Sequence record: MN850616.1
Source of the DNA: Escherichia phage buks
Length of the DNA stretch: 40,308 nucleotides
Strand: one strand, 5' to 3'
Shown here: positions 13,712 through 26,413 of the stretch, piece by piece
Layout: every line of letters starts with the position of its first letter
Position numbering within the stretch: position 1 is the stretch's first letter
Notes under the pieces: model-generated
Databases searched by the model: none
The model's input: only the letters and a program-made list of their open reading frames with translations
What the model was told of the DNA's origin: nothing
Position numbers and translations under genes: made by a program

Positions 13712-14221
13712 TTAACCCCTGAAAACATTAAAGGAGTAGGCATTATTGCTACCACATAAGAGAGGGCGTAACGCATCATCGGCTGCTGTGATGCTTACTG
13801 TGCTGCCCGAGTAGCCATTTTTAAAGTAGGACACGGTTACCGCACCCTCAACTCGTTCGGTCTGAACCTCTCGCCCGTCTGTAGACCCCCGAACGTCGGT
13901 ACCCGCACCATACTCTACGGCGGCCATTACCTGAGCCTGAACAATTAACGGAGGGATAACGTTAGATGGCTGAGGGAACCCGTGTAGGGTAATACCGGTT
14001 CTCGGGAACGCCAGCGCCTGGTTCGCCGATACACGGCGACCGCACATCTGCGATTCGAAAAGCCCAACATATACAGCACCATTTCTCAGCGCAGCCTCAG
14101 CCTTAACGTCGTCTTCTGGAAGTTCAAGGCCGTATTTAGCCGCTAGCGCACGTCCGTCTCCCAGGCTGACGTAGGAATCCGCATTAGGTAAGCCTTGTCC
14201 TGTTTCCACGATAAGCGGCAT
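13712..14221 (-). CDS. Putative head-tail connector/adaptor protein
   Basis: 169 aa; N-terminus MPLIVETGQGLPNADSYVSLGDGRALAAKYG resembles gp6-like head-tail connector openings from memory; weak. Confidence 0.35.
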   Translation of the reverse strand: MPLIVETGQGLPNADSYVSLGDGRALAAKYGLELPEDDVKAEAALRNGAVYVGLFESQMCGRRVSANQALAFPRTGITLHGFPQPSNVIPPLIVQAQVMAAVEYGAGTDVRGSTDGREVQTERVEGAVTVSYFKNGYSGSTVSITAADDALRPLLCGSNNAYSFNVFRG

Positions 14222-14224
14222 AAA

Positions 14225-14413
14225 TTATTCCTCTACGCTTTTGCGGCGACGACGCTGCTTAGGTTCCCCACCACCGTTGTAATGCGGTTCTTCTGCGACC
14301 GGTTGGGTCTCTATTAATGCACCCGGGTTCGCTTCTTCGCGCATCGGGTTTAACTGCCCGTTGACCTCGACCACACCTTTGTATTGTTCCCTGACTACGT
14401 AATTATCTGCCAT
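14225..14413 (-). CDS. Small basic protein (62 aa)
   Basis: ATG 14411-14413; lysine/arginine-rich C-terminus; between the Ig-like gene and connector-like gene. Confidence 0.4.
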   Translation of the reverse strand: MADNYVVREQYKGVVEVNGQLNPMREEANPGALIETQPVAEEPHYNGGGEPKQRRRRKSVEE

Positions 14414-16209: not shown

Positions 16210-16911
16210 TTATTTCCTCAGGGCTTTAAGTTGCCGTTCAAATTCGGCAGGGTTAGATTTATAGAGAGCCAACCGCTCACTTTCACTCATATCTTTAAAC
16301 GCCGGTGCGGCCCCGCCGCCTTTATTCCCGGAAGCCCCGCCACCGGAAGCTGCATTTGCTTTAATCAAATGTGAAAAAGCTTTATGTTCGCGCAGATATT
16401 TGCGGAACTGCTCAGGGTCGGTAGTAACAACATTACCATCCGCACCCATGAATTTAGTCACTACGTCTTCGCCGTCGAACTCGGTCTTAACGAAAGGCGC
16501 CAGGATTTCTACCGCTTCTGGGGTGATAAAATCACCGGCGAAAGAACCTAAAACAGCTTTACGTTCGCTACCAAGAATACGCGCGGCTAAAGACGCGTAA
16601 CGCTCTTCTTTCTCTTTCAGTACAGGTTCATACTGACTACGAATCGTCTTTTCAAATTCGTCCATTTTACCAGCGGCTTTCAACGCTTCCTGGTGGGCGC
16701 GTTGCCGTTCTTCTTCGGCTTCTTTAGCCCGGCGCGCAGCTTCCTTTTTCTCACTAAGTAATGCTTCTTGATTTGCTTTAAGCCCCGCCACTTCTTTCTC
16801 AATCATGGCCTGCACTTCTTCAGCGGTGTACATTTTTGGTGCGTCACCTGCACCCGGTTTATCTTCTACCCCGGCTTCTTCATGAAGCGGGTAACGTAAA
16901 AAACGATTCAT
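16210..16911 (-). CDS. Scaffolding protein
   Basis: Charged, Ala/Glu/Lys-rich helical protein (…EKKEAARRAKEAEEERQRAHQEALKAAGKMDEFEKT…) directly upstream of the capsid gene. Start re-set to ATG 16909-16911 (MNRFLRYPL...); the track start is TTG two codons earlier. Confidence 0.7.
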   Translation of the reverse strand: MNRFLRYPLHEEAGVEDKPGAGDAPKMYTAEEVQAMIEKEVAGLKANQEALLSEKKEAARRAKEAEEERQRAHQEALKAAGKMDEFEKTIRSQYEPVLKEKEERYASLAARILGSERKAVLGSFAGDFITPEAVEILAPFVKTEFDGEDVVTKFMGADGNVVTTDPEQFRKYLREHKAFSHLIKANAASGGGASGNKGGGAAPAFKDMSESERLALYKSNPAEFERQLKALRK

Positions 16912-16995
16912 AGTCAATATGTCCCCTGGACTTTAGGACACCGGGCCACCCGGTGTTTCTGTAACAAGAATAAATTATTCCACTTACTAAGGCAA

Positions 16996-17259
16996 CTATT
17001 CCAGAATATTCCTTATGTACTCCTGCAACCGGAATACTTTCAAGCGAAGTTGCCGTGTGCACTCAGCGTTACGCACGTCGATGGTCAGGTCTTCGTCGGC
17101 ATCACTACTTGGCAGTGCCATTTTGCACGGCGGCTGCATTAGTGTCATATCCGGGGATGGAATTAGCATTCTCGGCGGCGCGCCGTTTGATTGACACCCG
17201 CTCAGGAGGGAACACGCAAACAACACGACCAGGACGGGTAACGTATTTGATAACTTCAC
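16996..17259 (-). CDS. Rz1: o-spanin (Rz1-like outer-membrane lipoprotein)
   Basis: GTG start with GGAGG RBS 8 nt upstream; signal peptide with lipobox (VVLFACSLLSGC), Pro-rich mature part; begins inside the Rz reading frame (+1) and extends past its stop. Confidence 0.65.
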   Translation of the reverse strand: MKLSNTLPVLVVLFACSLLSGCQSNGAPPRMLIPSPDMTLMQPPCKMALPSSDADEDLTIDVRNAECTRQLRLKVFRLQEYIRNILE

Positions 17260-17491
17260 GGGTGATAGCCTCCGCGTTTTCTTTACCTTCGGTTTCGGCG
17301 GCGGCGGCCCTGGTATCGTTCTGCTGCTGCCGTTGTGTTTTCTTCGCTAGCTCGGCCTGTGCTTTCTGTTGTTGCTGTGAAACAAGATTAGCGCGGCCTT
17401 CGTTCCAGCCGCTTCTGTAGTTGTACTGACCATATAACCACAAAGAGAGGATACCGGCTGCCGTGGCTATCGCTGTTACTTTCCAATTCAT
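17105..17491 (-). CDS. Rz: i-spanin (Rz-like inner-membrane protein)
   Basis: 128 aa; N-terminal transmembrane segment (VTAIATAAGILSLWLYG) followed by a Gln/Ala/Lys/Glu-rich helical periplasmic region; contains the embedded Rz1-like ORF. Confidence 0.7.
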   Translation of the reverse strand: MNWKVTAIATAAGILSLWLYGQYNYRSGWNEGRANLVSQQQQKAQAELAKKTQRQQQNDTRAAAAETEGKENAEAITREVIKYVTRPGRVVCVFPPERVSIKRRAAENANSIPGYDTNAAAVQNGTAK

Positions 17492-17623
17492 AGTATCCCC
17501 TTTCTTTATACGCTAAGCCCGGCGTAAGCCGGGCGTTAAACTCGTATATCTGTAAACATCATACGGCGAATCTTAGTTAAATACTGAAAGCAATAGAGCT
17601 CGGCCCTTCCGAATGCGTTCGCG

Positions 17624-17697
17624 GTTACGCTAGGGCGTTGTGACGCCCGCTTCACGCGACCCGCACCGCGGTACGCTGAAAGCGTAGGTAGCGTAAC
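17624..17697. repeat. GC-rich nested inverted-repeat element (multi-hairpin) in a 318-nt non-coding gap
   Basis: Outer arms GTTACGCTA (17624-17632) and TAGCGTAAC (17689-17697); inner hairpins GGCG-TTGTGA-CGCC and TACGCT-GAA-AGCGTA (17672-17686); repeated GCGT/ACGC units. Confidence 0.5.
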
Positions 17698-17777
17698 ATA
17701 AAAAATAATAAAAGTCTATTTTTGGAATAAAGTATTCCTGAATTTACATTGGTAAGGGATAACTGGAATAATGGTGT

Positions 17778-17806
17778 GTAAAATTAAGGCCCCTTGACGG
17801 GGCCTT
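17778..17806 (-). terminator. Rho-independent terminator after the Ig-like gene
   Basis: Stem AAGGCCCC / GGGGCCTT (17786-17806) followed on the minus strand by AAUUUUAC. Confidence 0.55.
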
Positions 17807-17809
17807 TCG

Positions 17810-18268
17810 TTACTTAGATTCTGAGACCTTAGCCGCTTTACTTACCACCGATATCCCGTCAGCATCTACCGCCCTGACGAAATACTCCCCCGGGTCTTTA
17901 ACAGTTAGTTCCCCTTCAACATAAGGGACGTTGATTACCTCTTTACCATTTTTAAACCATTGCAAATCGTAGGGCGCTTTGCCACCTTTCACGACTACGG
18001 TTAGTTTAGCGGAACCGTCTTTCAATTCTACATCTGCTGGCTGTGTGTCGAAGTACACATCACCTGCTCCGCCCAGATACGGCACTTCGTACAGGATACC
18101 GGCAGGGATTGCTACCAGTCCGGTCTTATCAGCGAACGGCATTTCATCTACCGACTCACCAAGAACAGATTCATCTTTAATGTACACAACACCTTCGCCC
18201 GCGCCGGACACACGGGAGTACTGAACTACACGTCGTGAAGGCACATCTTTAACTTTGAAAAAGCCCAT
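17810..18268 (-). CDS. Ig-like domain protein
   Basis: 152 aa; C-terminal ...KLTVVVKGGKAPYDLQWFKNGKEV...GEYFVRAVDADG... Ig-like pattern; starts 2 nt after the head morphogenesis gene; followed by a terminator. Confidence 0.5.
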   Translation of the reverse strand: MGFFKVKDVPSRRVVQYSRVSGAGEGVVYIKDESVLGESVDEMPFADKTGLVAIPAGILYEVPYLGGAGDVYFDTQPADVELKDGSAKLTVVVKGGKAPYDLQWFKNGKEVINVPYVEGELTVKDPGEYFVRAVDADGISVVSKAAKVSESK

Positions 18269-18270
18269 CT

Positions 18271-19314
18271 CTATTCCTCTTTCAGATAATCGGCAACACG
18301 CTTATCGAGTTCCGCCATCTCTTTAAGAGTTAGCGGACGCCCGAATCCATCTACCGATATTACACGAAATTCTTCTGCGGTTATCCCACTATTACGAAAA
18401 ATCTTACCACGGACGGGGCCGAGCGCTTCGTCCTGGAACCACGCCGGTTGCTGTTTAAGGAACTCGTAGTAGGACGTGTCCGCGCTTACCTGCTTACCCC
18501 CATCCGCGCCCCTGGCCGCTCGTTTTGCGCCCTTATCCAGGAAATCGAATTCTGAGCTTATTACCGGTGCCGTGCTCGACCTGCAATTCGGGTGCGCTGG
18601 GGGTAGCGGACCTTTGCCTATTTCGTACTGCATAGAATCTCGCGACCGACAAACCGCAGAAGTACGAGAGTCGAGGGTGGATACCCACTCATACTTCGTA
18701 ATGATGTCGTCGTTCTGAGCGTAAACCTGTTGCCTGGCTTCGTTGGATACGTGCGCTAGGGCGGTACGAATAACGGTAGCGGCGTTACGCTCGGAGATAT
18801 CGGCCAGTCCACCAGGCCCGACAACGTTCTTAACTATCTGCCGCGTGGTCATACCCTGTACGAACCCAGACTTAACCCCCATCACCAGGCGATTCACCTC
18901 GGTTTGCCGCCAGCCATTCATTAGCGAAACAAAATCAACCGGTTTTTCGCTTAGTTCAAGTGGCGCGAAAGTCGCAGCGGCCCACACCTGCTCCGCAGCC
19001 GGTGTTACAAAGTTAGCATTAACGTTGGTCGACAATGTTTTTACATTCCAGTTAACCTCATAGTCGGAAAGCTCACGGGCGTCGGCCAGTAGCTTCTCAT
19101 ACCACCCGGACGTAATTCCGTTCAGTGCTTGCTCAAGTTCCCGCAGCATGATGGTGAGTCTCGCTGCCGTTCTGCTGTCATCGCCAAACAGCAGCACCTG
19201 TCGCTTAACCTCATCACGCATTTGCGAGATAAATGGCGCCAGGTCTTTCACTTCGCCGGATGCGGTACGTTGTAACCATATCTGATGGCTGATAATCGAT
19301 TCTAAAAGACTCAT
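18271..19314 (-). CDS. Head morphogenesis protein (Mu F / SPP1 gp7 family)
   Basis: 347 aa; C-terminal motif ...STLDSRTSAVCRSRDSMQYEIGKGPLPPAHPNCRSS... typical of the Mu-F-like minor head protein family; ATG 19312-19314 with GGGAGGGG RBS. Confidence 0.8.
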   Translation of the reverse strand: MSLLESIISHQIWLQRTASGEVKDLAPFISQMRDEVKRQVLLFGDDSRTAARLTIMLRELEQALNGITSGWYEKLLADARELSDYEVNWNVKTLSTNVNANFVTPAAEQVWAAATFAPLELSEKPVDFVSLMNGWRQTEVNRLVMGVKSGFVQGMTTRQIVKNVVGPGGLADISERNAATVIRTALAHVSNEARQQVYAQNDDIITKYEWVSTLDSRTSAVCRSRDSMQYEIGKGPLPPAHPNCRSSTAPVISSEFDFLDKGAKRAARGADGGKQVSADTSYYEFLKQQPAWFQDEALGPVRGKIFRNSGITAEEFRVISVDGFGRPLTLKEMAELDKRVADYLKEE

Positions 19315-19490: not shown

Positions 19491-20141
19491 ATGAATGTGC
19501 AGACTTTAGAATTTCCGTATGGCGAGGTGGAATTTACACGTGATGAGTATATAGATGCCTCAACATTAACCATCCAGATGAACAGATGGAGGTTCGATAA
19601 CGGACTCCAACCAAGAAATCTTGCGCAGATACTAAAAACCGATGACTGCAAAAACTTTATGCGTGTGTGTGAGGAGGAGACAGGTATTGTTCCGTTAAAA
19701 ACATCAAGAGGGAGGAACGGGAAGACGTGGTTGTGCCTGCACCTGGCCGTGTACATTGCAGAACAGTATAGTGCGTATTTTCACTTCCTGGTTATAGACC
19801 GATTTATTACGCAACGGCAGGTAGAGCTGCGTAACATTGGTGCGGTAAGCTTCGTGGAGCTTAATGCCGCCGTTAGTAGGATGATTGAACGTACAGAAGG
19901 GCGGATAGGCCATAGTGGACATTTCATACAGGTAGCGAAAGCAATCAAGGAGTCTATAGATATTCGTGAAGTCACAGGTTTTGATACATGGGACTCCCAG
20001 GACGCAAAAACTAATCAATTGCGGAGCGAGATTCAAAAGTCTATGGTGACGTTGTTGGATATGGAAGCAGTCAACTCGTGGGATGAGCTTAAAGAGACAA
20101 TACCGCGTGTTGTTCGCAAATGCGCGGCAAATATATGTTAA
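19491..20141 (+). CDS. KilA-N-like DNA-binding domain protein
   Basis: 216 aa; strong promoter and AAGAGGAG RBS upstream, terminator downstream; segment ...GKTWLCLHLAVYIAEQYSAYFHFLVIDRF... resembles the KilA-N pattern; opposite orientation to the flanking structural genes. Confidence 0.55.
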   Translation: MNVQTLEFPYGEVEFTRDEYIDASTLTIQMNRWRFDNGLQPRNLAQILKTDDCKNFMRVCEEETGIVPLKTSRGRNGKTWLCLHLAVYIAEQYSAYFHFLVIDRFITQRQVELRNIGAVSFVELNAAVSRMIERTEGRIGHSGHFIQVAKAIKESIDIREVTGFDTWDSQDAKTNQLRSEIQKSMVTLLDMEAVNSWDELKETIPRVVRKCAANIC

Positions 20142-25221: not shown

Positions 25222-25842
<621 letters not shown>

Positions 25843-25862
<20 letters not shown>

Positions 25863-26130
25863 ACATCCTCCGGTATTTGTAGTAGCGGGCGCCTTTCACG
25901 CAAATATGACGCACCGATTTAAGCGCGAATACGGCGACGAGAGTCGTAATTATGAATGGCGGGATGCCACCGGTAAAGAGATGAGCTAGCCCACCGGCGG
26001 CGGTAACAACGGACGCCATATACAACAGACGACCGAAAAGACCGTCTTCAATCCAGTGAGCGTAGATATTAATTAGCGAGGTGATGATGATTGCGACCAG
26101 GCAAATAACGCCGATTGGTGAGTTGAGCAT
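25843..26130 (-). CDS. Holin (three predicted transmembrane segments, basic C-terminus)
   Basis: 95 aa; three hydrophobic stretches and charged tail KYRRMYVKPKH; directly upstream of and overlapping the endolysin gene; GGGGGAAA RBS. Confidence 0.6.
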
Positions 26131-26131
26131 G

Positions 26132-26413
26132 TTATTTCCCCCACGGTAACTTAAAGTTGCTGAGGGACGAGTCGGCGGCTTCGAATAATTTAAGCCAGAA
26201 CATACCTACACCAAAAGGAACCAGGTACTGCCCCTCAGACTGCGATAGTTCATAGTAACTTATAATGATGGGGGATGCGTACACCGCACAACAGGCAGAT
26301 GCTACGAGATGGCATAATCGCAACCACGGCGAAATAGCCTCACGCTTCTTAATCTGGGATACGGCACCCCCGGCGAGGCCCGCCACACTAAGCCAAAGGT
26401 ATTTATCGTCCAC
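26132..26413 (-). CDS. Holin/antiholin-like membrane protein
   Basis: 93 aa with hydrophobic segments; GTG start (no in-frame ATG upstream); adjacent to holin-endolysin pair. Confidence 0.45.
   Translation of the reverse strand: MDDKYLWLSVAGLAGGAVSQIKKREAISPWLRLCHLVASACCAVYASPIIISYYELSQSEGQYLVPFGVGMFWLKLFEAADSSLSNFKLPWGK

What the first reader, a model, noticed from the sequence alone, without database searches (positions are those of the whole stretch)
16996..17491. Rz/Rz1-type spanin pair lies inside the head morphogenesis operon, ~8 kb away from holin and endolysin
The i-spanin (TM helix plus coiled-coil) and overlapping o-spanin (lipobox LLSGC, GTG start) sit between the Ig-like/head morphogenesis genes and the scaffold gene. 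Holin(s) and endolysin are at 25374-26413. This separation of the lysis cassette means spanin expression is probably tied to late structural transcription, possibly from a promoter in the 17492-17809 gap.
Basis: partly seen in the sequence, partly recalled or inferred. Interest (0 to 1): 0.35.

Follow-up and report, generated by a model that had tools for sequence, protein, structure and literature searches.

The report
Known spanin pair among head genes
The two overlapping genes are a real outer-membrane-disrupting "spanin" pair of a Salmonella Jersey-type phage, and their odd position among the head genes, 8 kb from the other lysis genes, is an old, conserved and already catalogued feature of this phage group rather than a new discovery.

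Summary
The window is Salmonella phage blauehaus (Jerseyvirus), at 100% identity. On the minus strand, 17105-17491 encodes a 128-aa membrane-anchored i-spanin. 16996-17259 encodes an 87-aa o-spanin: GTG start, GGAGG ribosome-binding site, lipobox LLSG-C22, +1 frame, 155-bp overlap. The pair lies between the Mu-F/Hoc-like head genes and the scaffold gene, 7.9 kb from holin-holin-endolysin.

It is already known. This is the "Jersey" overlapped spanin family of Kongari et al. 2018, and close relatives annotate it as i-/o-spanin. Spanins unlinked to holin and endolysin are also known from T4. The placement after the Mu-F gene is present in all 69 related IMG/VR loci and in Kagunavirus, Cornellvirus and Dhillonvirus phages. 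The proteins are not detectable homologues of lambda Rz, and only borderline for Rz1.

The 318-bp gap holds:
- a terminator after the Hoc-like gene;
- a conserved sigma70-like extended -10 promoter next to a 15-bp palindrome;
- a roughly 165-nt leader with covarying helices, ending in a conserved hairpin about 25 nt before the i-spanin start.

A second, invariant promoter-like element for the scaffold gene starts right after the o-spanin stop. This regulatory anatomy is the only modestly new part. Nothing here has been tested experimentally.

The parts
17105..17491 (-). i-spanin gene (128 aa): N-terminal TM anchor, Q/A/K/E-rich periplasmic helix with two polyQ tracts, invariant Cys92
   Evidence: ORF and translation. 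phrog_2536 Rz-like spanin at 1e-57. Invariant residues across genera. AF2 helix 3-84, break 85-95, helix 96-110. Annotated 'putative spanin' in the blauehaus record.
16996..17259 (-). o-spanin gene (87 aa): GTG start, +1 frame, 155-bp overlap with the i-spanin; signal peptide with lipobox LLSG-C22 (+2 Gln); invariant Cys45 and Cys67
   Evidence: phrog_5672 and phrog_1267 Rz-like spanin. Lipobox Cys present in 69/69 related loci. Not annotated in the blauehaus record, but annotated as o-spanin in Shelanagig, Shashou, SETP3 and K1G.
17269..17273 (-). GGAGG ribosome-binding site, 9 nt before the o-spanin GTG, inside the i-spanin coding sequence
   Evidence: Sequence. A ribosome-binding site is annotated at the same place in Shelanagig and Shashou.
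17786..17806 (.). GC-rich hairpin directly after the Hoc-like stop codon. Terminator-like on both strands (-16.7 / -15.3 kcal/mol), with a modest U tail.
   Evidence: Conserved in Jersey- and Kaguna-type phages. Annotated as a terminator in PVP-SE2 and Shashou.
17690..17718 (-). Candidate spanin promoter: -35 TAGACT (17713-17718), 17-nt spacer, extended -10 TGt (17696-17698), -10 TACGCT (17690-17695). Predicted transcription start near 17684.
   Evidence: Alignment across Jerseyvirus and Kagunavirus. Motif found in 42 of 43 distinct loci, with -35 TTGACT in most. PVP-SE2 annotates an in-silico promoter here. Not found by the plain consensus scan. No experimental support.
17724..17738 (.). Perfect 15-bp palindrome GGAATAAAGTATTCC, lying between the -35 of the spanin promoter and the -35 of a divergent +strand promoter-like site. 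Candidate operator.
   Evidence: GGAATA/TATTCC sites cluster only here and at 16976-17031 in the whole window.
17743..17772 (+). Divergent promoter-like site TTTACA-18-AATAAT with TG. Conserved. In TU03 and ST521_1PISJ it faces a 179-aa opposite-strand gene that blauehaus lacks.
17501..17685 (-). Leader of about 165-185 nt between the candidate promoter and the i-spanin ribosome-binding site. Structured RNA with covarying helices. Contains the doubtful 39-aa ORF 17536-17655.
   Evidence: The 324-nt stretch 17492-17815, which includes the gap, folds with z = -4.3 against shuffles. RNAalifold on 7 and on 43 sequences gives 8-9 pairs with compensatory changes, against 0-1 when partners are slid. 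No Rfam family. ORF substitutions are mostly non-synonymous, several relatives carry frame-shifting indels, and the ORF is lost in STP03.
17517..17534 (-). Conserved hairpin GCCCGGC-UUAC-GCCGGGC (-16.3 kcal/mol), ending 25 nt before the i-spanin ATG. Terminator/attenuator-like, with a weak U tail in this phage and a better one in Kagunavirus.
   Evidence: One stem position shows C:G, G:C, U:A and A:U pairs among 43 sequences. Cornellvirus-type loci have a different GC hairpin at the same place.
16965..16995 (-). Scaffold-gene promoter-like element starting right after the o-spanin stop: -35 TTGCCT (16990-16995), 17 nt, -10 TATTCT (16967-16972). It includes the invariant 18-mer TGGAATAATTTATTCTTG (16965-16982), a near-palindrome related to 17724-17738.
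   Evidence: The 18-mer is identical in all 11 Guernseyvirinae loci searched for it. In VSiP it stays with the scaffold gene although a gene is inserted after the o-spanin.
25374..26413 (-). The rest of the lysis set: two holins (26132-26413, 25843-26130) and a soluble lysozyme-type endolysin (25374-25862), closed by a strong terminator at 25280-25306
   Evidence: Pfam Phage_lysozyme at 1e-29; PHROG holin and endolysin families. Translations show no N-terminal SAR anchor on the endolysin. Terminator.

Best explanation
The two ORFs are the i-spanin and o-spanin of a Jersey-type siphophage (Salmonella phage blauehaus).

Inferred mechanism, from what is established for two-component spanins:
- The i-spanin is anchored in the inner membrane by its N-terminal helix.
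- The o-spanin is exported, lipidated on Cys22 and sorted to the outer membrane.
- Their periplasmic C-terminal parts bind each other across the periplasm.
- Conserved cysteines (Cys92; Cys45 and Cys67) probably form intermolecular disulfides.
- Once the holins and the endolysin, encoded 8 kb away, have destroyed the cell wall, the complexes fuse or disrupt the outer membrane to complete lysis.

The position right after the Mu-F-type head morphogenesis gene is ancestral to Guernseyvirinae and Dhillonvirus.

In Dhillonvirus the pair is simply the tail of the terminase-portal-minor capsid operon. In this phage the pair looks like its own small transcription unit inside the head cluster:
- a terminator after the Hoc-like gene;
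- a conserved sigma70-like extended -10 promoter flanked by a palindromic operator-like site;
- a structured leader ending in a terminator-like hairpin, which may throttle expression;
- then the two spanin genes, read through into the scaffold/capsid unit, which has its own invariant promoter-like element.

Shown here: the gene anatomy, the conservation, the synteny, and the sequence and covariation evidence for the regulatory elements. Inferred: spanin function, promoter activity, timing, and any attenuation.
For: Source: 100% identity to MT074473.

Spanin features:
- TM anchor, lipobox, +1 overlapped architecture, ribosome-binding sites.
- Lipobox Cys in 69/69 loci.
- Invariant Cys22, Cys45 and Cys67 in the o-spanin, and Cys92 in the i-spanin.
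- PHROG Rz-like spanin families.
- Match to the published Jersey family: 155-bp overlap, Cys45/67, polyQ.
- Curated i-/o-spanin annotations, with TMHMM and lipobox notes, in close relatives.

Synteny:
- Mu-F-(Hoc)-iSp-oSp-(scaffold-MCP) on one strand in all 69 IMG/VR loci, with no holin or endolysin within 2.5 kb.
- The same order in K1G, VSiP and GeorgBuechner.

Regulation:
- Terminator, promoter, palindrome, leader and hairpin.
- Scaffold promoter element.
- A strong terminator closes the holin-endolysin unit.
Against: - No experiment on this spanin family was found. The Jersey family was defined bioinformatically.
- No Pfam, NCBIfam or PDB match, and no detectable homology to lambda Rz.
- The TM segment is only moderately hydrophobic in a 19-residue window (Kyte-Doolittle 1.15).
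- No heptad pattern supports a coiled coil, and the AF2 model has mean pLDDT 64.9.
- The promoter has a poor -10 hexamer (3/6) and was missed by the consensus scan.
- Covariation in the leader rests on few independent lineages, and the structure was derived from the same sequences.
- The pre-RBS hairpin lacks a good U tract in this phage.
- The available RNA-seq on a Kagunavirus puts lysozyme and head genes in one broad 'middle' class and does not name the spanins.
Confidence: 0.85

Rival explanations
1. The spanins have no promoter of their own. They are made only from read-through of the head-morphogenesis transcript (Mu-F and Hoc-like genes), as a true part of the head operon. The conserved gap elements would then serve something else, such as the divergent promoter or RNA processing.
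For: In Dhillonvirus the i-spanin start overlaps the minor capsid gene by 8 bp with no gap, so co-transcription is the likely ancestral state. The Hoc terminator has only a modest U tail. The -10 hexamer of the candidate promoter is weak.
Against: The -35/TGn/-10 pattern at fixed spacing is conserved in 42 of 43 distinct loci across two genera. It is also retained in TU03 and ST521, where an opposite-strand gene separates the Hoc-like gene from the spanins, which makes read-through from Hoc implausible there.
Confidence: 0.2
2. The leader region is a separate gene rather than a 5' UTR. It would be either a small RNA that ends at the 17517-17534 hairpin, or the 39-aa basic peptide (17536-17655, phrog_14923), with a role unrelated to the spanins.
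For: The layout is promoter, then about 165 nt, then a GC hairpin followed in Kagunavirus by UUUACUUAU. Some helices covary. The ORF is annotated as hypothetical in several genomes and has its own PHROG.
Against: The unit always sits directly in front of the i-spanin ribosome-binding site, in both Jersey- and Kaguna-type phages. ORF start, stop and length differ between genera. One-nucleotide indels occur in several relatives, the ORF is lost in STP03, and amino-acid changes dominate. The conserved 'AFGRA' codons coincide with a covarying helix. No Rfam family matches.
Confidence: 0.25
3. The 87-aa ORF is not a real gene but a chance ORF in the alternative frame of the i-spanin, or the pair has a non-lysis role such as a superinfection-exclusion lipoprotein or a head-assembly factor, as its position might suggest.
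For: The ORF is missing from the blauehaus record and from many relatives' annotations. It uses a GTG start. It lies among head genes. No direct functional data exist.
Against: The lipobox Cys and two further Cys are invariant across four phage groups. The gene persists as a nearly non-overlapping ORF in Cornellvirus-type loci (4-14 bp overlap). A GGAGG ribosome-binding site is present. No other spanin candidate lies next to the endolysin: the cassette ends in a terminator, so the phage would otherwise lack a spanin.
Confidence: 0.04

Closest known systems
'Jersey' two-component spanin family, overlapped architecture (Kongari et al. 2018, BMC Bioinformatics 19:326, PMC6139136): Jersey, SETP3, SE2, wksl3, K1G, K1H, HK578, JL1 and others
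   Same: Same proteins: 84% (o-spanin) and 83% (i-spanin) identity to SETP3, and 67% and 69% to K1G. Same 155-bp overlap, the same conserved o-spanin Cys45/Cys67, and the same two polyQ tracts in the i-spanin.
   Different: Nothing substantive. Blauehaus is simply a later isolate, and its GenBank record lacks the o-spanin call.
Phage lambda Rz/Rz1 (prototype two-component spanin, embedded architecture, last genes of the S-R-Rz/Rz1 lysis cassette)
   Same: Same logic: a type II inner-membrane protein plus an outer-membrane lipoprotein encoded in the +1 frame of the same DNA, with periplasmic cysteines. The lambda layout was checked.
   Different: - No detectable homology of the i-spanin to Rz (hhalign 1.4%).
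- Only a borderline match of the o-spanin to Rz1, limited to the lipobox and a Pro-rich MQPP stretch (50.8%).
- No Pfam Rz or Rz1 hit.
- Overlapped rather than embedded.
- Not adjacent to holin and endolysin.
Phage T4 pseT.3/pseT.2 spanins
   Same: Spanin genes that are not located near the holin and endolysin genes, as stated in Kongari et al. (Fig. 8 legend). Unlinked spanins therefore have a precedent.
   Different: T4 has the separated architecture, and all its lysis genes are scattered. Here holins and endolysin remain a compact cassette and only the spanins sit elsewhere, at a fixed place in the head module.
Dhillonvirus (HK578-like) spanins, e.g. phage GeorgBuechner bas16_0005/0006
   Same: Distant members of the same family, 37-43% i-spanin identity. 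Same place directly after the Mu-F-type minor capsid gene. Holins and endolysin lie far away, at 41344-42354 of 44295.
   Different: No intergenic gap, promoter or leader: the i-spanin start overlaps the minor capsid gene by 8 bp. There is no Hoc-like gene, and an Nmad5 gene on the opposite strand follows the o-spanin.

Membership tests
Two-component spanin (i-spanin + o-spanin) functional class | i-spanin: a single N-terminal transmembrane anchor with the bulk of the protein in the periplasm | tested here: met
   Lys4, then a 16-residue hydrophobic core and an aromatic/Arg belt. AF2 helix from residue 3, with pLDDT 84-91 over the first 20 residues. The Shashou homologue carries a depositor note that TMHMM predicts a single TM domain. 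No dedicated TM predictor was available here, and the 19-residue Kyte-Doolittle window is only 1.15.
Two-component spanin (i-spanin + o-spanin) functional class | o-spanin: lipoprotein signal peptide with a lipobox Cys and no Asp at +2 (outer-membrane sorting) | tested here: met
   LLSG-C22-Q passes a PROSITE-like rule. The Cys is invariant in 5 genera-level representatives and present in 69/69 loci: 59 canonical, 10 with L-N-G-C. The +2 residue is never Asp.
Two-component spanin (i-spanin + o-spanin) functional class | o-spanin gene embedded in, overlapping, or immediately downstream of the i-spanin gene | tested here: met
   +1 frame with 155-bp overlap. Other overlaps in relatives are 128, 137 and 4-14 bp.
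Two-component spanin (i-spanin + o-spanin) functional class | Periplasmic cysteines available for intermolecular disulfide bonds | tested here: met
   Cys92 in the i-spanin, and Cys45 and Cys67 in the o-spanin, are invariant. Bond formation itself was not tested.
Two-component spanin (i-spanin + o-spanin) functional class | Helical / coiled-coil periplasmic domain of the i-spanin | tested here: inconclusive
   AF2 monomer: helix 3-84 and helix 96-110, but mean pLDDT 64.9. The best heptad register has only 47% hydrophobic a/d positions counting Ala, and 24% without it.
Two-component spanin (i-spanin + o-spanin) functional class | Required for outer-membrane disruption; complements lambda Rz/Rz1 mutants | not testable with these tools
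   No experimental report for this family was found in the papers searched.
'Jersey' spanin sequence family (Kongari et al. 2018) | Sequence similarity to the Jersey/SETP3/K1G i- and o-spanins, with the family's hallmarks (155-bp overlap, o-spanin Cys45/Cys67, polyQ tracts) | tested here: met
   tblastn finds 663 phage records with a relative of the i-spanin.
Lambda Rz (Pfam PF03245) / Rz1 (PF06085) sequence families | Significant match to the family profile or to lambda Rz/Rz1 | tested here: not met
   No such Pfam hit at E <= 0.1. hhalign against lambda Rz gives 1.4%, TM segment only. Against Rz1 it gives 50.8% over the lipobox and a Pro-rich stretch, which is borderline.
Unimolecular spanin (T1 gp11 type) | One protein with both an N-terminal lipobox and a C-terminal TM domain | tested here: not met
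   The o-spanin C-terminus (…RQLRLKVFRLQEYIRNILE) is polar and has no hydrophobic segment. A separate i-spanin is present.
Intrinsic terminator / transcription attenuator (for the hairpin 17517-17534) | GC-rich stem-loop followed directly by a U tract | tested here: inconclusive
   The stem is stable (-16.3 kcal/mol) and covaries. The tail is UUAGCGUAU here, which is weak, and UUUACUUAU in Kagunavirus. The terminator scan did not flag it.

The most novel reading that the evidence does not exclude
Guernseyvirinae phages may control spanin dose and timing separately from holin and endolysin, through a dedicated regulatory module that has not been described. Its parts would be:
- a promoter sharing a GGAATA-N3-TATTCC operator with the scaffold/capsid promoter;
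- a conserved structured leader of about 165-190 nt, whose terminal hairpin and possible pairing with the Shine-Dalgarno region attenuate i-/o-spanin expression.

Alternatively, the leader is released as a phage small RNA.
Probability: 0.3. Interest if true: 0.4.

Novelty: already known. Interest (0 to 1): 0.15.

Why it matters
The finding itself matters little for discovery. It re-identifies a catalogued spanin family at its usual, conserved place.

It does have practical value for annotation:
- The o-spanin is missing, truncated to its last 41-47 residues, or mislabelled in many Jersey-type records, including this phage's own.
- One PHROG family is built from the truncated calls.
- At least one paper reads the annotation gap as a real difference in lysis gene content.

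The conserved promoter, operator, leader and hairpin in front of the spanins could matter more if confirmed. They would give a testable handle on how a phage sets spanin expression when the genes are uncoupled from the holin-endolysin cassette.

Tried and rejected
- **tRNA in the gap.** ARAGORN finds none in the window. The 'tRNA-Ser' annotated there in ER21, ER22, demigod and wast is an ARAGORN call built on the terminator hairpin. It lies on the opposite strand, overlaps the 3' end of the Hoc-like gene, and has no Rfam tRNA support.
- **Known RNA family for the leader.** Rfam gives nothing better than E = 0.59, a spurious CRISPR-repeat hit on the hairpin.
- **The 39-aa ORF as a conserved protein.** Not convincing: start and stop differ between genera, there are indels, it is lost in STP03, and changes are mostly non-synonymous.
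- **A third GGAATA-type site at 14218-14231.** It is just the ribosome-binding site and start of a head-tail joining gene.
- **The two near-palindromes as terminal repeats of a mobile spanin cassette.** Rejected. In VSiP the downstream element stays with the scaffold gene rather than with the spanins, and Dhillonvirus has the spanins at the same place without the repeats.
- **A second promoter formed by the upstream palindrome, by analogy with the scaffold promoter.** The spacing does not fit when read by eye.
- **Pfam, NCBIfam and PDB sequence searches for both proteins.** No informative hits.
- **Transcript evidence.** The only Guernseyvirinae RNA-seq paper found groups 42 of 57 genes as 'middle' and does not name the spanins.
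- **Shelanagig genome announcement.** It does not mention the lysis genes.
- **Covariance model of the leader.** Not built. At 229 columns it would probably exceed the calibration limit, so covariation was counted directly instead.
Full report
**Source and observation.** The 3.5 kb around the finding is 100% identical to Salmonella phage blauehaus (MT074473; Jerseyvirus, Guernseyvirinae). It is 90-95% identical to some 270 other Jersey-type phages. On the minus strand, 17491->17105 encodes a 128-aa protein beginning MNWKVTAIATAAGILSLWLYG. 17259->16996 encodes an 87-aa protein from a GTG start, beginning MKLSNTLPVLVVLFACSLLSGC. The second ORF is in the +1 frame of the first. It overlaps it by 155 bp, runs 109 bp past its stop, and is preceded by GGAGG at a 9-nt spacing. 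The architecture is therefore 'overlapped' rather than 'embedded'.

**Neighbours.** Upstream lie a Hoc-like Ig-domain decoration protein (17810-18268) and a Mu-F/SPP1-gp7 head morphogenesis protein (18271-19314). Downstream lie the scaffold protein (16210-16911) and the major capsid protein. Two holins and a soluble lysozyme-type endolysin occupy 25374-26413, which is 7,883 bp away.

**Is the small ORF more than chance?**
- Among 1,091 start-anchored ORFs of at least 40 aa in six frames, only three places pass a PROSITE-like lipobox rule. This is the only one beside a membrane protein.
- The sequence also has a second lipobox-like site at Cys16 (LFAC). Only Cys22 is invariant across Jerseyvirus, Kagunavirus, Cornellvirus and Dhillonvirus representatives, together with Cys45 and Cys67.
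- In 69 related IMG/VR loci the corresponding ORF always carries the cysteine. 59 have a canonical lipobox and 10 have L-N-G-C. The +2 residue is never Asp.
- The overlap with the i-spanin varies: 155, 128 or 137 bp, and only 4-14 bp in Cornellvirus-type loci. The ORF therefore survives as an almost separate gene.
- The i-spanin has an invariant Cys92 and an invariant ExxKY…P.R..C.F…RV..K motif.

**Identity.**
- PHROGs place the proteins in Rz-like spanin families: 1e-57 for the i-spanin, and 4.5e-31 and 1e-19 for the o-spanin.
- Kongari et al. 2018 (PMC6139136) list a 'Jersey' family of 27 phages in the overlapped class: Jersey, SETP3, SE2, wksl3, K1G, HK578 and others. They describe a 155-bp overlap in Jersey, conserved o-spanin cysteines at positions 45 and 67, and two polyQ stretches in the i-spanin. 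All of this matches the present sequences exactly.
- The same ORFs are annotated as i-spanin and o-spanin in Shelanagig and Shashou, with TMHMM and lipobox notes, and as spanins in SETP3 RefSeq and K1G.
- Genome papers record the same split arrangement without comment. In VB_EcoS-Golestan the holins and endolysin are ORF66-68 and the spanins ORF7-8. In SeF1 they are gp63-65 and gp9-10.

The finding is therefore already known.

**Relation to lambda Rz/Rz1.** This is similarity of design, not detectable homology.
- No Pfam Rz or Rz1 hit and no NCBIfam hit.
- No PDB relative.
- hhalign against lambda Rz gives 1.4% probability, on the TM segment only.
- hhalign against lambda Rz1 gives a borderline 50.8%, over the lipobox and a proline-rich 'MQPP' stretch.
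- An AlphaFold2 monomer model built on 27 family members gives a continuous helix 3-84, a break at 85-95 around Cys92, and a helix 96-110. Confidence is good only for the first 30 residues or so; mean pLDDT is 64.9.
- The periplasmic helix is Q/A/K/E-rich and shows no clear heptad register.

**How old is the placement?**
- In all 69 IMG/VR loci the order is (portal)-Mu-F-(Hoc)-i-spanin-o-spanin-(scaffold-MCP) on one strand. No holin or endolysin relative lies within 2.5 kb.
- K1G (Kagunavirus), VSiP (Cornellvirus) and GeorgBuechner (Dhillonvirus) have the same order.
- In Dhillonvirus-type loci, Mu-F and portal are only about 25-30% identical to the blauehaus proteins. There the i-spanin start overlaps the minor capsid gene by 8 bp, and the holins and endolysin sit at the other end of the genome.
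- The linkage of spanins to the Mu-F gene therefore predates the split of these groups. In its simplest form the pair really is the tail of a head operon.
- The spanins have diverged faster (50-69% identity) than the flanking scaffold and capsid proteins (77-91%).
- Unlinked spanins are not unusual in principle. [quoted passage not shown]

**The 318-bp gap (17492-17809).** The gap is more conserved among Jersey-type phages than the surrounding 3.5 kb. Half of the records are 95-99% identical in the gap, against 90-95% for almost all records over the larger region. Reading the minus strand:
1. **Terminator.** A GC hairpin at 17786-17806 follows the Hoc-like stop (-16.7 kcal/mol). It is annotated as a terminator in PVP-SE2 and Shashou.
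2. **Divergent promoter-like site.** TTTACA-18-AATAAT with TG lies on the + strand at 17743-17772. In TU03 and ST521_1PISJ it faces a 179-aa opposite-strand gene that blauehaus lacks.
3. **Palindrome.** A perfect 15-bp palindrome GGAATAAAGTATTCC lies at 17724-17738.
4. **Minus-strand promoter-like site.** -35 TAGACT (17713-17718), 17 nt, TGt, -10 TACGCT (17690-17695). The pattern T[TA]GA[CT]T-N17 (ending in TGn)-TA[AC]GCT occurs at the same place in 42 of 43 distinct Jersey- and Kaguna-type loci. The -35 is usually TTGACT. PVP-SE2's depositors had already predicted a promoter here. The plain consensus scan missed it because the -10 hexamer is weak.
5. **Leader.** A leader of about 165 nt (about 190 nt in Kagunavirus).
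6. **Pre-RBS hairpin.** A hairpin at 17517-17534 (-16.3 kcal/mol) ends 25 nt before the i-spanin ATG.

**Is the leader structured?**
- The 324-nt stretch 17492-17815, which contains the gap, folds with z = -4.3 against shuffles.
- RNAalifold on 7 and then 43 leaders predicts 32-38 pairs, 8-9 of them with compensatory changes. Only 0-1 appear when the 3' partners are slid by 1-3 columns.
- Best supported is a 9-bp helix CCGCGGYGCG/CGCRUUCGG. Its C:G to U:A switch recurs independently inside the Kaguna clade (L044, L048).
- Next is an apical hairpin with four pair types at one position.
- The pre-RBS hairpin shows C:G, G:C, U:A and A:U at one position.
- Cornellvirus-type loci have a different leader but again a GC hairpin just before the ribosome-binding site.
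- A predicted pairing of the leader's 5' end with the sequence next to the Shine-Dalgarno is weaker evidence. Its compensatory changes amount to one event each, and local hairpins compete with it.
- These counts lean towards the structure, because the structure was derived from the same few lineages.

**The 39-aa ORF in the leader (17536-17655, phrog_14923).** It is annotated in several genomes, but it is probably not a conserved protein.
- Its start, stop and length differ between genera.
- Several relatives carry 1-nt indels, and STP03 lacks it.
- Changes among Jersey-type copies are mostly amino-acid-changing.
- Its one conserved stretch ('AFGRA') coincides with the covarying helix.
- No Rfam family matches.

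**Downstream of the o-spanin.** Directly after the TAG stop lies TTGCCT (16990-16995), then 17 nt, then TATTCT (16967-16972). This includes the 18-mer TGGAATAATTTATTCTTG (16965-16982), which is identical in all 11 Guernseyvirinae loci searched for it. In VSiP a gene has been inserted after the o-spanin, and the element stays with the scaffold gene. It is best read as the scaffold/capsid promoter region, followed by a 5'-UTR hairpin (16938-16956). The 18-mer is a near-palindrome related to the one at 17724-17738. GGAATA/TATTCC hexamers cluster only at these two places in the 40-kb window. A shared DNA-binding regulator is a reasonable guess, not a result.

**Resulting picture.**
- The holin-holin-endolysin unit ends in a strong terminator (25280-25306) followed by a new promoter-like site.
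- The spanins lie two predicted terminator hairpins (25280-25306 and 17786-17806) and 8 kb downstream on the same strand.
- In this phage they most likely form a small unit of their own inside the head cluster, reading through into scaffold and capsid.
- Timing is untested. The one RNA-seq study of a Kagunavirus classes lysozyme, Mu-F and capsid genes together as 'middle' and does not name the spanins.

**Verdict.** The finding is an already known member of a catalogued spanin family at its conserved location. The conserved promoter, operator, leader and hairpin module, and the annotation errors listed under things noticed in passing, are the only additions. Interest is low.

Noticed in passing
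window 16996-17259; L005 1497-1992; L011 1671-1796; L010 1653-1796; L085 873-1196: The o-spanin is widely mis-annotated.
- It is absent from the blauehaus, ER21 and SHWT1 records.
- It is truncated to the last 41-47 residues, without signal peptide or lipobox, in STP03, TU03, ST521_1PISJ and PVP-SE2. PVP-SE2 also swaps the i- and o- labels.
- phrog_5672 is a 47-residue profile that matches only residues 41-87, so it appears to be built from the truncated calls.
- SHWT1 has an intact unannotated o-spanin ORF. The published statement that vB-SeS-01 differs from SHWT1 and EnJE1 by an 'extra spanin' (PMC11803447) is therefore an annotation artefact.

Sources.
   Followed up: yes
window 17501-17685 (minus strand): A conserved structured leader RNA lies between a candidate promoter and the i-spanin ribosome-binding site. 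Several helices covary across Jersey- and Kaguna-type phages. It has no Rfam family. It may be an attenuator, a translational regulator or a small RNA.
   Followed up: partly
window 17724-17738 and 16965-16982: Two related near-palindromes (GGAATAAAGTATTCC; TGGAATAATTTATTCTTG) flank the spanin cassette. One lies between two divergent promoter-like sites, and the other overlaps the -10 of the scaffold promoter-like element. The 18-mer is identical in all 11 Guernseyvirinae loci searched for it, across three genera. These are candidate operators for an unidentified regulator.
   Followed up: partly
window ~17760-17838 (+ strand); L003 2261-2339: Several relatives (ER21, ER22, demigod, wast) annotate a 'tRNA-Ser(tga)' here. 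ARAGORN reproduces it in ER21 but not in blauehaus. It is built on the terminator hairpin, overlaps the 3' end of the Hoc-like gene, and has no Rfam tRNA support. In ER21 the Hoc-like CDS is missing from the annotation at that place. It is probably a false positive.
   Followed up: yes
window 17536-17655 (minus strand): A 39-aa basic ORF (phrog_14923, annotated as hypothetical in Shelanagig, PVP-SE2 and Shashou) lies inside the leader. It is not convincingly coding: its ends differ between genera, there are indels, it is lost in STP03, and changes are mostly non-synonymous.
   Followed up: yes
window 19491-20141 (+ strand): A 216-aa protein on the opposite strand, between the portal and head morphogenesis genes, is named 'amidase' in the blauehaus and SETP3 records and in phrog_6095. 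Its only Pfam signal is a sub-threshold KilA-N DNA-binding domain (E = 0.0013), with no amidase domain. The lysis-related name looks unfounded.
   Followed up: partly
L010 388-927; L012 388-927; L008 719-1992 and 3096-3368; L006 3767-4531: The flanks of the spanin pair are a hot spot for opposite-strand accessory genes in relatives:
- a 179-aa unknown protein in TU03 and ST521_1PISJ;
- a calcineurin-like phosphoesterase (sub-threshold Pfam hits) plus small ORFs in VSiP;
- an Nmad5 nucleotide-modification protein in Dhillonvirus.

Sources.
   Followed up: partly
window 25222-25306 (minus strand): A strong intrinsic terminator (10-bp stem, nine T) lies 68 bp after the endolysin stop. It is followed at once by a TTGACT-17-TATATT promoter-like site. 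The holin-holin-endolysin genes therefore look like a closed unit of their own.
   Followed up: no
loci L015-L083: The spanins diverge faster than their structural neighbours. Where scaffold and capsid proteins are 77-91% identical to blauehaus, the i- and o-spanins are 43-69% identical. The i-spanin TM segment and the o-spanin signal peptide are the least conserved parts.
   Followed up: no
window 17194-17259 (o-spanin residues 1-22): The blauehaus o-spanin signal peptide contains a second lipobox-like site (L-F-A-C16) upstream of the conserved LLSG-C22. Cys16 is not conserved in relatives, so Cys22 is taken as the lipidation site.
   Followed up: yes
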